DNA of 64,000 nucleotides from Octopus vulgaris (taxonomy: Eukaryota). The stretch covers positions 60,078,001-60,142,000 of the forward strand of contig OX597827.1 of assembly GCA_951406725.2 (NCBI GenBank), written 5' to 3'. The notes below the pieces were generated by a model that saw nothing but the letters and a program-made list of their open reading frames with translations, was not told the DNA's origin and did not search any database. The stretch's first letter is position 1; each line of letters starts with the position of its first letter. The position numbers and the translations under genes were made by a program. Below, piece after piece: positions 4,081 to 59,345 of the stretch.

Positions 4081-4690
4081 GGGAATTCTCTATCGGTGAT
4101 TTCGGGCAATTATAGTCCCTGCTAGTATATATGTATAAAATTGTGTTTTGATTACAGCATTAGAGTTTTTTTAGCTCTTATTTCTAGCAGTGTAGGTGTT
4201 TCTAGCACCCTAGTCATATTCAGTGACAATTATAGTTTTCCTTTTTGGTAAAACATTGCACACTGCTGTCTATATCAATTTTTTGTAGACACATTAGTGA
4301 TTCGCCAAATCATCCACAGATTTTTATGGTGGAAACATTTTTACTGACAATTAATTTCGGAATCTACCGAAGTCGAGCCAATCCTTACAAATGAGGCAAC
4401 GGAAATTGCCGAAAATGACTGACTGGCATAAGGAATTCTCGATCGGTGTATTCGGGCAATTATAATCCTTATCAGTATATATGTATGCAATTTTCTATCT
4501 TCTCTCCCTGTTCATTACCGTGTCCCTTTCCGTCGAAGAGCGTAGGCTCGAAACATAAAAGACTTTCTCACTTCCTGAGCGTTAAACTAATATATCTGTT
4601 TGTTGTTTACGCATCCGTCTTTGTCTTTTGATTTTTTTGTAAATTCTCCCTATGCAATTTTGTACTTTGACTAGAGCATTTTAGCTCTTA
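4081..4690 (+). mobile_element. About 350-bp unit with a direct terminal repeat and a decayed hammerhead (PLE pLTR/retrozyme-like)
   Basis: 4081-4180 recurs at 4431-4690, where it is interrupted. 4383-4433 reads cctta-CAAATGA-ggcaa..ttgcc-GAAA..taagg. Confidence 0.55.
4495..4650 (+). mobile_element. 156-bp hammerhead-bearing insertion with an 11-bp TSD
   Basis: TATGCAATTTT at 4484-4494 and 4651-4661; internal CCGTCGA-A-GAGC-GTAG-GCTC-GAAACATA; homologous to 36900-37095 and 50480-50640. Confidence 0.75.
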
Positions 4691-4797
4691 TAAATATGTG
4701 TGTGCGTGTGGTGTGTGTGCGTGTGTGTGAGTGTGTTTGTGTGTGTGTGTGTGTGTGTGTGTGTGTGTGTGTGTGTGTGTGTGTGTGAGTGTGTATG

Positions 4798-4960
4798 TCA
4801 TTATTCAGTTTCATTTCAAGGTTTCTTACCAATGCAGGAAGAACCGGTTTCTAACCTAGATCCAAAGCTCTTTCATTGGAATCTCATCATCAACAGGGCA
4901 TTTTTGCATGTATTTGTGAATATCTGCAATTTTAGGAGTCACTCGAAATCAGATATAGAA
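4798..4960 (-). mobile_element. 3' UTR fragment of a Dong/R4-like LINE
   Basis: Reverse complement matches 37560-37671 (GGATCTAGGTTAGAAACC...ACTGAATAATGA) and is followed by CATAC. Confidence 0.7.
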
Positions 4961-5043
4961 AGAATTATCTATCTATCTATATATATATATATATATATAT
5001 ATATATATATATATATATATATATATATATATATATATATATA

Positions 5044-6125
5044 GCTAACATTATATCAGACCTTAAATCTAGATTTAAGCTATATCTATGAACAAATACA
5101 GTCGATGTGATTTATAGGTTTCGGAATGTTCAAAGCAAAAGTAAATGTAAATTTATCGATGTAGATATAGATAGCAATTATTCTGATATTACTCTTATCC
5201 TACAAAATAAATCTCTGATATTCGCTCAAATCTATCTAGAACGGAGGTTGAGATTATTCTTACTGCTAGGCGGACAGTGAATGATCTCGATGGTAAGAAT
5301 TGAACTAAGAAGAACAAAATTAATAATTTCGGTATGACAACGGGGTCCAATGATTCGGCACAGATAACTGATTTGGTTGGTATTTACAATGTATAACTCA
5401 AAACAGGATTTCCCATAAATATGGATGGTCTATATAGAATTTCCTATACAATATGAATGGTTTATATAGGGATGACGCACGTCTTTTTGCCAGTTATAGT
5501 AATGTGGGTATAGAAACAACAAGAAAGCGCTTGCAAACAAAATTTTAAACATTGGTCTATTACAACTAAAAGTAGTCATGAGATAACAAATTTCCTAGAT
5601 GTAACGCTTTAATAAGATACTGGAAATTTTTTCATCCGTATTATAAACCGGGTGAAACCCTGCGTTACGTTAACAAAGCTACGAATCATCCTAAGACCGT
5701 AATTAATTCAATTATTAAACACTTTTCTAATAGAATTTCTAAGAAAATTTCAATAAATATGCGGATTTTTATAACGATGAGTTTAGCAGGGTAGGATTCA
5801 GCAAGAAAATTGAATGTGTTACGAAACAGAACACATCATCTGTAAAAACCTACAGTCTAGGTGATATGAATATATCCACTCAGCATCATCATAAGAAATA
5901 TTACAATAACGCTAAGAACAAATTCAGGAGAAATATTATTTCTGAAACTAATTCCTCCGATTAGACTATAAAATTCAGCACACATAATACAAAGAATAAA
6001 AATGTGAAGGATCGCGCAACTAACCTTCAAAGACCTATTTCTAAAAATAATATTCTACGTATGAATTCCTGTCTGACGATGGTAACTAAACCAGAACTTC
6101 AAGATCACAGTCAAACTTTTCTTTC
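5044..6125 (+). pseudogene. Decayed Penelope-like element reverse transcriptase
   Basis: Hand translation gives FGMTTGSNDSAQITDLVGIY (5328), GLYRDD (5459), FLDVTL (5592) and PYYKPGETLRYVNKATNHPKTVI, which are PLE RT/thumb motifs; stops and frameshifts are present. Confidence 0.8.
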
Positions 6126-6816
6126 TAATATATACACTGATAGAAACATAGACAGAGAGAGAGAGAGAGAGAGAAGCACATGTATATATGCATACTATAC
6201 GTATATGTATATTATATATATACATATAAATATATATATATATGTATATGTATACATACATATATGTGCGCGCACGCGTATGTGTGTAATTGCATATATA
6301 TTTGAATATATATATATATACATGTATACATTTATGTATATATTTATAAATGTATACAGAGATAGATAGATGGATATACACACATGTATATGTGCATATG
6401 TATACATATATGCATGCATGTTATATATATATACACATATATATATATATATACATACATATATACATATATATATATATATATATATATATATATATAT
6501 ATATATATATATATATATATATATATATAAATATATATAACATGAAACAAAATATCATCTGCCAACAAATGCGAAGAAACCAGACTGCGTTTAACCTCCC
6601 CACCCCTACCCTACCCTACCCCCACTCCCACCTTACCCCTAACTTCTTCCGTAATACATCGACTATATTTATCGATGTACTTGATTACATTACCAAGTGT
6701 ACTTTAAAACATCATCTACATGAACCACCACAACAACGTCCAAAACAAAACCACAAAAAAAACACAACAAAGTCTGGGTCGAAATGAGCATGAGGAGGTT
6801 CTAATCGTTTGTTTGA

Positions 6817-57286: not shown

Positions 57287-57321
57287 GTTTCTGACGAAGA
57301 GCTCCGCTCGAAACGTAAAAC
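57287..57321 (+). ncRNA. Minimal type I hammerhead ribozyme with an intact core
   Basis: gttt-CTGACGA-a-gagc-tcc-gctc-GAAA-CG-TA-aaac; palindromic ACGT stem III. Confidence 0.8.
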
Positions 57322-58180
57322 CCTCCTTCTTCCCCTCCTTCCTTCCTGAGCGTCCAATAATATCTATATTTGTTCCACGTCCTACGCAAATTTATACATA
57401 AATTATTGTATGTGATAACTCTAGTGCTTAGCTCCGAAGCAGCCACAGAAGATCGTTTTGTGTTTTCATGTTTAGATTGAATTCATTACTAATGTAATAT
57501 GTAGTTTTTTATATATATATATATATATATAGTTTTTTGTGCTAGGCCACTCGGTGTTAAATTAATGGTATTATTAAATTAATATCGATTTTTCACCCTC
57601 ATTTATAAATTTATAAATTTAACTATGCGGCAGTAAATATTTTATTTGATGCGGCATACGTTTCCAATGGAGTCTTGGAATGCTTTTGGCGCGGAATTTG
57701 AGACATAACTAAAAATGTAATTGGTTGGACCGCTCGTGTTTTTGACGCTCGAATCGATCTGTGTGTGTGTGTATGTATATATGTATACATATATATATAT
57801 ATATATATATATATATATATATATATATATATATATATATGTATACATATATATATGTATACATATATATATATACACATTGATAGACACACAGATATAT
57901 AAACAAATAGATAGATGTACACACATATATACTAATATATATGTATGTGTGTATATATATATATACATATATATATATATATATATATATATATATGTGT
58001 GTGTGTGTGTGTGTAGATATATGTATGGATATGTATATATATATATTTATATATATATATATATATGTACGAATATACATATATATATATATGTATATAT
58101 ATATATATATATATATATATATATATATATATATATATATATATATATATATATATATATACATATATATATATATATAT

Positions 58181-58510
58181 AGGCGTGGCTGTGTGGAAAA
58201 AAGCCTGTTTCCCAACCACATGGTTCCGGATTCAGTCACACTGCGTGGCACCATTGGCAAGTGTCTTCTTCTGTAGCCTGGGCTGTTTAAAGCCTTTTGA
58301 GTGGATTTGGTAGACGGAGACTGAAAGAAACTCGTCGTGTATATGTATGTATGTATATGTTTGTGAATATTTGTTTGTCCCCCACTCCGCCATCGCTTGA
58401 GAACCGATGTTGGTGTGTTTGCGTCCCTTTAACTTAGCGGTTCGGCAAAAGAGACCGATAGAATAATTCCTAGGCTTACAAAGAATAAGTCTTGGGGTCC
58501 ATTTGTTCCA
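58181..58510 (+). mobile_element. SINE family A, 3' truncated
   Basis: Matches the family A consensus. Confidence 0.88.
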
Positions 58511-59298
58511 TCCTGGCTGCAGTCAACTGTGTGTGTGTGTGTATGTATATATGTATACATATACATATAAATACACATTGATAGACACACAGATATATAA
58601 ACAAATAGATAGATGTACACACATATATACTTATATATATGTATGTGTATATATATATATATATATATATATATATATATATATATATATATATATATAT
58701 ATATACATATATATATATATGTATATTCGTACATATATATAAATATATATATATATATATATATATATACACATATCCATACACATATCTACACACACAT
58801 TCACACACACACGTATACATATAAATGAACAATGTGGAGCTAGCGCAAGAGATTAAAAGAAAAAATGCAAAAATGCGTTATTCTTATTTATAGCGAGTTA
58901 TAAAGAAAACGATATATTTAAGTAAACAAGGAAACCGCCTTGAAGAAAAAAAAACTCGCATAATATCAATAACGTTAATATCGAAACGATTTTAGCACTA
59001 CATACGAATGCTTGTCTGTGAGTATGCGGGCATGAGTATGTGCATCCGTGTGCGCACGGGATGTGTATGTGTGTAAGGTTTGAGTATTGTCTACAAAAAC
59101 CTCCATGGAAAGGGACCTAATACTGTATTAAGGAAATTTCTTTACTTATTGCGGGTAAATTCATAATTATTAATTTTTTTATCATATGTACGTAGACTAA
59201 CGAGAACCATGTTCTGGCCGATTCGAACGTAAATATGCTAATCGCTGTAAAAATGAAACGATGCGGTGTTCATAACACAATTCATTGGTACATGGGAT

Positions 59299-59345
59299 TT
59301 TGAGACACGGCAGTGTTTCGACCTGGTTGTATCTCCTCAGTCAAA
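59299..59345 (-). ncRNA. Type I hammerhead ribozyme with a self-folding stem III
   Basis: tttga-CTGAGGA-gat-acaaccag-gtc-GAAA-cac-tgcc-gtg-TC-tcaaa. Confidence 0.85.

What the first reader, a model, noticed from the sequence alone, without database searches (positions are those of the whole stretch)
4383..59345. About 15 or more hammerhead motifs from several unrelated short repeat families in 64 kb
Seen: intact type I motifs at 24061, 26250, 57287 and 59299(-). Variant cores at 24489(-), 41784 and 36962. Decayed copies at 4383, 4527, 13540(-), 13655, 19199, 26890, 33068(-), 50516 and 53960. Stem III is usually palindromic or nearly so but differs in sequence (ACGT, CATATG, ACATGT, AATATT, CTCAGAG, CCCAGGG, CCGTACGG), so the symmetry is conserved rather than the sequence. 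Decayed PLE RT and GIY-YIG fragments lie in the same window, one 210 bp upstream of a hammerhead. Inference: a diverse set of PLE pLTRs and non-autonomous, retrozyme-like elements in this genome.
Basis: partly seen in the sequence, partly recalled or inferred. Interest (0 to 1): 0.75.

Follow-up and report, generated by a model that had tools for sequence, protein, structure and literature searches.

The report
Penelope hammerheads with fixed variant cores
The window holds about 18 real hammerhead RNA motifs, mostly the cut-off tail ends of Penelope-type jumping genes plus one retrozyme-like repeat, which is known biology; the unusual part is that whole high-copy families carry fixed changes in the catalytic core, one of them predicted to nearly stop self-cutting, and cutting is untested.

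Summary
Observation confirmed: 5 strict type I hammerheads in the window against 0.35 in shuffles; 14 of the 16 listed sites have family copies elsewhere in G000, two (4383, 33068) have none in the 2 Mb I hold. Families A, B2, C and E lie behind Penelope-like (PLE) GIY-YIG ORFs and occur as 5'-truncated solo copies or inverted pairs. One (59299) is an old ~335-nt tandem, circularly permuted repeat with a canonical hammerhead, i.e. retrozyme-like. Palindromic stem III is published (Cervera 2014). Several 'variant' or 'decayed' sites are family states: G3-C8 (6,459 exact copies, none C3-G8), A6U (14,944 against 543), U4C (most of B1 and H); A3-U8 and U3-A8 families lie elsewhere in the genome. 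All four Watson-Crick 3:8 pairs are therefore fixed in PLE families of one genome. Copies derive from uncut RNA (3 of 166 start at the cut). I found no paper with natural G3-C8, A3-U8 or A6U cores, but could not read Lünse 2017; this scan noted G3-C8 and A6U families before on other DNA. No cleavage or RNA evidence. Verdict: new variants of a known kind.

The parts
24061..24143 (+). Family A hammerhead, canonical core, long stem II, palindromic stem III (ACATATGT)
26249..26327 (+). Family A hammerhead, canonical core, damaged stem II; about 265 nt behind a Hydra-type endonuclease fragment
13500..13735 (.). Divergent inverted pair of decayed family A pLTRs (about 13500-13615 minus, 13654-13735 plus), both cores broken
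57287..57321 (+). Family B1 minimal hammerhead, canonical core here; about three quarters of the family has U4C; stem III ACGT
36962..37000 (+). Family B2 minimal hammerhead with the family-fixed A6U core; PLE 3' pLTR
4526..4563 (+). Decayed family B2 copy
50515..50553 (+). Decayed family B2 copy
24489..24539 (-). Family C hammerhead, G3-C8 swapped core, extra G, 7-bp stem I, palindrome AATATT, U17; PLE 3' pLTR
24548..24600 (+).
41784..41834 (+). Family C hammerhead, G3-C8 core, one transition in stem III; 5'-truncated pLTR between (TA)n runs
19199..19237 (+). Family E hammerhead, identical to the commonest subfamily; 2-bp stem II with GNAA loop; pLTR of a Hydra-type PLE; other subfamilies U4C
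26890..26933 (+). Decayed family F minimal hammerhead (family core canonical, stem III ACGT)
53976..54015 (+). 3' half of a family H hammerhead (family core U4C, 10-nt palindromic stem III)
59212..59550 (-). Family D: slightly more than one ~335-nt unit of a retrozyme-like repeat; canonical hammerhead at 59299-59345
29375..29419 (+).
33068..33124 (-). Hammerhead-like remnant, stem III ACCCAGGGT; no family copy found; unverified
4381..4430 (+). Hammerhead-like remnant; its downstream flank recurs at 4080; no family copy found; unverified
5223..5734 (+). Decayed PLE reverse transcriptase fragments
   Evidence: E 5e-8 to 1e-5
25825..25986 (+). Decayed C-terminus of a PLE GIY-YIG endonuclease, Hydra-type
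   Evidence: E 5e-9

Best explanation
Most motifs are 3' pseudo-LTR hammerheads of Penelope-like retrotransposons, likely left behind when reverse transcription of uncut element RNA stopped or folded back soon after passing the motif, and one (59299) is likely an old retrozyme; several families carry fixed core variants whose cutting is untested. Shown: repeat families, ORF linkage for A, B2, C and E, solo and inverted-pair layout, fixed cores. Inferred from the literature: the PLE protein nicks AT-rich or microsatellite DNA and primes reverse transcription at one of two sites near the 3' end (the 'tail'); the palindromic stem III lets two motifs pair so that cleavage needs a dimer or protein help; cleavage is an occasional processing step, not needed to make an insertion. 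Inferred here: G3-C8, U3-A8 and A3-U8 keep the 3:8 pair because the active fold is still selected; U4C is a slow, tolerated form; A6U is likely very slow and kept either as a protein-assisted cutter or as a fold.
For: Excess over shuffles. Family C: RT + GIY-YIG ORF of 530 aa about 1.1 kb upstream in L117, same layout in L111-L113, L115, L116, L119; inverted pairs with the tail on one arm only. B2: partial tandem RT-EN-HHR-EN-HHR in L364; EN upstream within 2 kb for 9 of 83 copies, 6 of them the B2-type EN at 0.67-0.89 kb. E: 8 of 51 copies with the same EN at 1.07-1.12 kb. Unbiased 1 Mb: 42 solo, 12 in inverted pairs, 0 tandem of 54. 3 of 166 informative copies begin within 5 nt of the cut. 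G3-C8 6,459 exact places; 19 with both positions changed, none C3-G8. U6 14,944 against 543; 39 of 40 copies found by the downstream flank alone that cover the position have U6, none A6 (read by eye). In B2 the variable positions are N7 and H17, the two that catalysis leaves free, and the stem I closing pair is swapped against B1. A3-U8 family: 163 places, 99 of 100 listed. Engineered C3G/G8C rescues cleavage (PMC11167929, PMC9901934; passages).
Against: No cleavage, expression or circle was observed. B1, F, H, 4383 and 33068 are not tied to an ORF, and only 2 of 21 A copies are. Most loci were picked by the motif itself, so identity across copies is partly selection bias; in the flank-only set, which still held non-family rows, the motif was only modestly more conserved than its flanks (0.84 against 0.76 and 0.77). 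Single changes in the CUGA turn gave low activity in a full mutational scan (PMC9901934), so A6U may be dead. MFE folds give the hammerhead arrangement for 24532 but not for 24066, 57291 or 59340.
Confidence: 0.82

Rival explanations
1. Most short families are non-autonomous retrozymes that spread through small circular RNAs.
For: Family D fits: ~335-nt unit, permuted starts, copies longer than one unit (L329 about 2.4 units, L341, L335, L338, the window copy), canonical hammerhead, 40% GC, no ORF on the same strand. A few same-strand pairs at 225-380 nt occur in B2 and C loci. An earlier unchecked note reports retrozymes in this genome (e1-8663845).
Against: 0 of 54 unbiased copies are tandem; B2, C and E extend upstream into RT/EN ORFs; these families have minimal, palindromic motifs.
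Confidence: 0.1
2. The variant-core families (above all A6U) no longer cut; the motif rides along as a neutral relic or as a protein-binding or dimerising fold, since insertion does not need cleavage.
For: Cleavage mutants did not affect PAc insertion in vitro (PMC11167929); Naiad elements thrive without canonical hammerheads (PMC8557442); A6 changes lower activity (PMC3088659, PMC9901934); copies come from uncut RNA; the commonest E subfamily has an A-A mismatch at the base of stem II.
Against: G5, G8, G12, the 3:8 pair, the palindrome and non-G at 17 are kept while N7 and H17 vary between B2 subfamilies whose EN DNA differs by about 15%; four different Watson-Crick pairs at 3:8 are hard to explain without selection on the active fold.
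Confidence: 0.4
3. The motifs are chance matches in repetitive, AT-rich DNA.
For: The two-mismatch tier is not above shuffles; 4383 and 33068 have no family support; about a third of strict hits in the genome sample are expected by chance (7.3 of 23).
Against: 5 against 0.35 and 5 against 0.13 in the window; thousands of exact family copies with reversed-pattern controls of 0.
Confidence: 0.02

Closest known systems
[quoted passage not shown]
   Same: Extra nucleotide between 9 and 10.1, short palindromic helix III, many unrelated families per genome, mostly solo copies, opposite-strand pairs, U3-A8 variant, position behind RT/EN ORFs.
   Different: The Fig. S3 motifs as extracted have C3-G8 or U3 cores with U4 and A6; none has G3-C8, A3-U8, U4C or A6U. 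Their descriptors fixed the core, so such families would not have been retrieved.
Poseidon element PAc of Anolis (Frangieh et al. 2024, PMC11167929; passages)
   Same: Tail from two RT start sites, uncut RNA as template, pLTR hammerhead.
   Different: C3G/G8C there is an engineered partial rescue; here it is the natural fixed state of a young family.
Non-LTR retrozymes (Cervera and De la Pena 2020, PMC7229834, passages and section 14; Li et al. 2026, bioRxiv 10.64898/2026.07.22.740005, parts 1-2 of 5)
   Same: Family D: ~335-nt low-GC units, head-to-tail copies, canonical type I hammerhead, coexistence with PLEs.
   Different: D is old (73-83% identity) and mostly monomeric; no RNA circle shown; the other families are not tandem.
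Hydra, Neptune and Nematis PLE clades (Craig et al. 2021, PMC8557442; passages and section 11)
   Same: E and the window EN fragment carry Hydra-type motifs; C, B2 and the 781-aa family carry the CX2-5CxxC linker; (TA)n insertion bias; 5'-truncated and inverted copies.
   Different: Clades were judged by motif only; no tree with reference elements was built.
Natural hammerhead core variants (Perreault et al. 2011, PMC3088659; section 8 and passages)
   Same: U3-A8 natural covariation; U4C tolerated in a viroid; A6C slow.
   Different: Rare single examples there; here G3-C8, A3-U8, U4C and A6U are fixed in families of hundreds to more than 10,000 copies.

Membership tests
PLE minimal type I hammerhead | Three-helix junction with core CUGANGA...GAAA...UH | tested here: met
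   Canonical in A, F, D and part of B1 and E; 3:8 pair kept by swap in C
PLE minimal type I hammerhead | Invariant A6 and U4 | tested here: not met
   B2 has U6; most B1 and H copies and some E subfamilies have C4. These are filed as variants, not as canonical members.
PLE minimal type I hammerhead | Short palindromic helix III | tested here: met
   A, B, C, E, F, H; not D; in the genome sample 12 of 23 strict hits are perfect palindromes
PLE minimal type I hammerhead | Self-cleavage as dimer or with protein help | not testable with these tools
   Homodimer folds are 3-12 kcal/mol below two monomers but do not always take the hammerhead form
Penelope-like element (EN+) | RT plus C-terminal GIY-YIG ORF upstream of the motif | tested here: met
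   C, B2, E, A by EN fragments in 2 of 21 copies
Penelope-like element (EN+) | ORF link for B1, F, H, 4383, 33068 | tested here: inconclusive
   0 of 29 B1, 0 of 15 H, 1 of 17 F copies with an EN upstream within 2 kb; few long copies held
Penelope-like element (EN+) | 5' truncation, inverted copies, partial tandems, tail on one end | tested here: met
Hydra clade (family E) | CxxC before the conserved E and CxH after the conserved N of the EN; no CCHH | tested here: met
   L359 ORF against PMC8557442 section 11; the CxCX5C linker is only partly kept
Neptune/Nematis clades (C, B2) | CX2-5CxxC linker before GIY-YIG | tested here: met
   which of the two clades was not tested
Non-LTR retrozyme (family D) | 150-450-nt head-to-tail units with a canonical type I hammerhead, no ORF | tested here: met
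   multi-unit copies in at least 4 of 20 loci
Non-LTR retrozyme (family D) | Expressed as a circular RNA | not testable with these tools
Non-LTR retrozyme (families A, B, C, E, F) | Tandem units each with a hammerhead | tested here: not met
   0 of 54 unbiased copies

The most novel reading that the evidence does not exclude
PLE hammerheads work under a relaxed core code: in this genome all four Watson-Crick pairs at 3:8, U4C and even A6U are functional, selected family states because the element's own protein or dimer formation supports the active fold. Standard CUGANGA searches would then miss about half of the hammerheads here (15 of 32 stringent hits per Mb are A6U, U3-A8 or U4C, 10 canonical), and these natural variants would offer a ready series for asking what the PLE hammerhead is for.
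Probability: 0.3. Interest if true: 0.7.

Novelty: new variant of a known kind. Interest (0 to 1): 0.42.

Why it matters
The role of the hammerhead in PLEs is open: it is near-universal in canonical EN+ clades yet dispensable for insertion in vitro. Young, high-copy families with fixed G3-C8, A3-U8, U4C and A6U cores, with their own RT/EN proteins at hand, make that question testable: if A6U dimers are dead, an element reached at least 15,000 copies without a working ribozyme while keeping its fold; if they cut with protein help, the catalytic consensus is looser in RNPs than in naked RNA. The dense scatter of motifs itself is ordinary.

Tried and rejected
Rfam scan: the 150 displayed rows were almost all microsatellite-driven miRNA models; 153 lower rows were not seen. 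The repeat finder was swamped by microsatellites. Pfam on 298 of 437 stop-to-stop fragments found no PLE domain, only a LINE-type RT and a mariner DDE; PLE fragments appeared only with tblastn of the genome's own PLE proteins. A window search printed nothing and was redone. The A3-U8 copy inside family C (L119) is decay, not a subfamily: 7 of 19 double changes. The PLE ORF between two B1 motifs in L361 was not accepted as B1's parent, because the same EN type has a U3-A8 motif 174 nt downstream in L136. 35011(+) has a core but no stem I and was dropped. Sequencing runs: no RNA holder listed, contigs only, so no evidence on expression, ends or circles; the two lays only show no variant at 5% or more at G3, C8 or U6 in runs of four organism labels. 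In one search hits starting more than 25 nt behind the cut were set aside as microsatellite matches (629 of 795 rows). One search failed and was redone, where 23 of 63 rows were non-family or lacked position 6 and were left out by eye. Folding of D gave no signal (z 0.74 and -0.96). Not held and not read: Lünse et al. 2017, Arkhipova et al. 2017 (Terminons), Nelson and Uhlenbeck 2008; any of them, or supplements of the 2026 preprint, may list these variants. Literature searches for the variants: G3-C8; A6U, C3G, G8C, U4C; A6U; U4C; A3-U8, U3-A8; for octopus.
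Full report
Setting. The window lies in G000 (2.8 Gb, 227 contigs), a microsatellite-rich animal genome, probably an octopus (inference: size, about 30 large contigs, and a named homolog of one PLE protein annotated in Octopus, 52% identical). I name families by letter: A (24061, 26250, 13540, 13655), B1 (57287), B2 (36962, 4527, 50516), C (24489, 41784), D (59299), E (19199), F (26890), H (53960); 33068 and 4383 stand alone.

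Observation. A type I descriptor finds 5 strict sites against 0.35 in 100 block shuffles (max 4) and 11 against 2.26 with one core mismatch; two mismatches add nothing over chance. A palindrome-aware tier gives 5 against 0.13. BLAST groups the listed sites into families. 14 of 16 have copies elsewhere; 4383 and 33068 have none in about 2 Mb held. Two more motifs lie at 24548-24600 and 29375-29419. Decayed PLE RT (5223-5734) and endonuclease (25825-25986) fragments are real. In 100 systematically spaced 10-kb stretches there are 23 strict motifs against 7.3 shuffled, roughly 44,000 genome-wide, and 71 copies of families A, B, C, E, F, roughly 200,000. The window has about three times that density.

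What the repeats are. Family C extends upstream through a microsatellite-rich 3' UTR of about 1.0-1.4 kb into an RT plus GIY-YIG ORF (L117, 530 aa; Pfam GIY-YIG over cut-off), with copies 90-97% alike. Short copies begin some 15-50 nt before stem I; many form head-to-head pairs in which one arm carries a ~60-nt tail and the other ends at (TA)n, the layout described for PLEs (PMC8557442) and explained by two RT start sites (PMC11167929). B2 shows a partial tandem RT-EN-motif-EN-motif (L364). E lies 1.07-1.12 kb behind a Hydra-type EN in 8 of 51 copies; A behind Hydra-type EN fragments in 2 of 21; B1 (0 of 29), H (0 of 15) and F (1 of 17, the window's own fragment) are not linked. In the unbiased sample 42 of 54 copies are solo, 12 are in divergent inverted pairs and none is tandem.

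Family D is different. Its unit is about 335 nt, copies start at different points, several exceed one unit (L329 about 2.4 units; L335, L338, L341; the window copy wraps round), GC is 40%, and no PLE ORF lies on its strand. Its hammerhead is canonical, with a 6-bp helix I and an ordinary hairpin helix III. This matches non-LTR retrozymes (PMC7229834). It is old (73-83% identity) and folding gives no signal.

Fixed core variants. C: G3-C8 in 6,459 exact 19-mers; only 19 places change both positions and none is C3-G8. B2: U6 in 14,944 exact 30-mers with all four N7 bases common, against 543 with another base, mostly C; 39 of 40 flank-found copies that cover the position have U6. B1: 11,312 places, 77 of the first 100 with C4 (counted by eye). 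H: C4 in 13 of 15. E: 6,218 places; about half of the listed ones equal the window copy, most others have C4; loop II is always GNAA. Outside the window, PLEs including a young 781-aa family carry U3-A8 and another family A3-U8 (163 places, 99 of 100 listed; 277 nt behind an EN in L114). Contigs from runs of four organism labels show no variant at 5% or more at G3, C8 or U6. In the sample's stringent tier 10 of 32 hits are canonical, 9 A6U, 3 U3-A8, 3 U4C, 7 others, against 2.3 shuffled.

Mechanism. Shown: the anatomy above. Taken from papers: dimer formation through the palindrome and low activity (PMC4209133; review PMC6765202, passages), protein-assisted cleavage that is not needed for insertion, and partial rescue by C3G/G8C (PMC11167929); the G:C swap as the only rescued double change in the CUGA region (PMC9901934); U4C slow but viable in a viroid and A6C slow (PMC3088659). 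Inferred: the 3:8 swaps show continued selection on the active fold; A6U is the outlier. For selection in B2: N7 and H17 vary while G5, G8, G12 and the palindrome stay, two lineages with EN DNA 85% alike share the motif except at H17, and stem I is compensated against B1. Against: selection bias in the loci, a modest conservation contrast in the flank-only set, and the mutational data. I put about 0.4 on the variant families, A6U above all, no longer cutting.

Comparison and novelty. The scattered, family-diverse, palindromic hammerheads are the published min-HHRs, and the coexistence of PLEs and retrozymes is published too. My searches found natural U3-A8, U4C (viroid) and A6C, but no natural G3-C8, A3-U8 or A6U; the one A6U listing is a twister paper that I did not open. 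Lünse 2017, the largest PLE hammerhead census, was not available. The scan itself has noted abundant G3-C8 and A6U families in other genomes (e1-9597707, e1-9559914; unchecked). Verdict: real, mostly known; new core variants of a known kind; interest 0.42.

Noticed in passing
window 30810-32654 (-): 615-aa open RT frame (Pfam RVT_1, E 1e-30) of a LINE-type element, not a PLE; 5'-truncated, flanked by (TA)n.
   Followed up: no
window 35100-36200 (+): Mariner-type transposase remnant (Pfam Transposase_1, E 5e-17).
   Followed up: no
L061:2745-5087 and many places: Very young PLE family with an intact 781-aa RT + GIY-YIG frame at a dozen or more places; it and close relatives carry a U3-A8 hammerhead 0.4-0.9 kb downstream.
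   Followed up: partly
L114:5562 (+), 3886 (-): A3-U8 hammerhead family, 163 places, behind a Neptune-type EN, with an inverted upstream copy.
   Followed up: yes
L117:5570-6680; L364:3500-4190: The 3' UTRs of families C and B2 contain long built-in microsatellite and polypyrimidine tracts, so these PLEs may spread simple repeats.
   Followed up: no
family E: Position 11.1 varies over all four bases opposite a fixed A while a 2-bp stem with a GNAA loop is kept; the commonest subfamily has the canonical core but an A-A mismatch there.
   Followed up: partly
window 24066-24140: Stem II of this A copy holds an internal second CCTTCGAAA that could offer an alternative fold; other copies of the subfamily have CCTTCGGAA there.
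   Followed up: no
window, many sites (e.g. 11875-12030, 46158-46615, 50672-51060): Abundant SINE-like repeat ending at (TA)n, more than ten copies in the window.
   Followed up: no
L030:1188 (+), 918 (-): Inverted pair of hammerheads with a U3-G8 wobble core in both arms, related to a U3-A8 family (L158).
   Followed up: no
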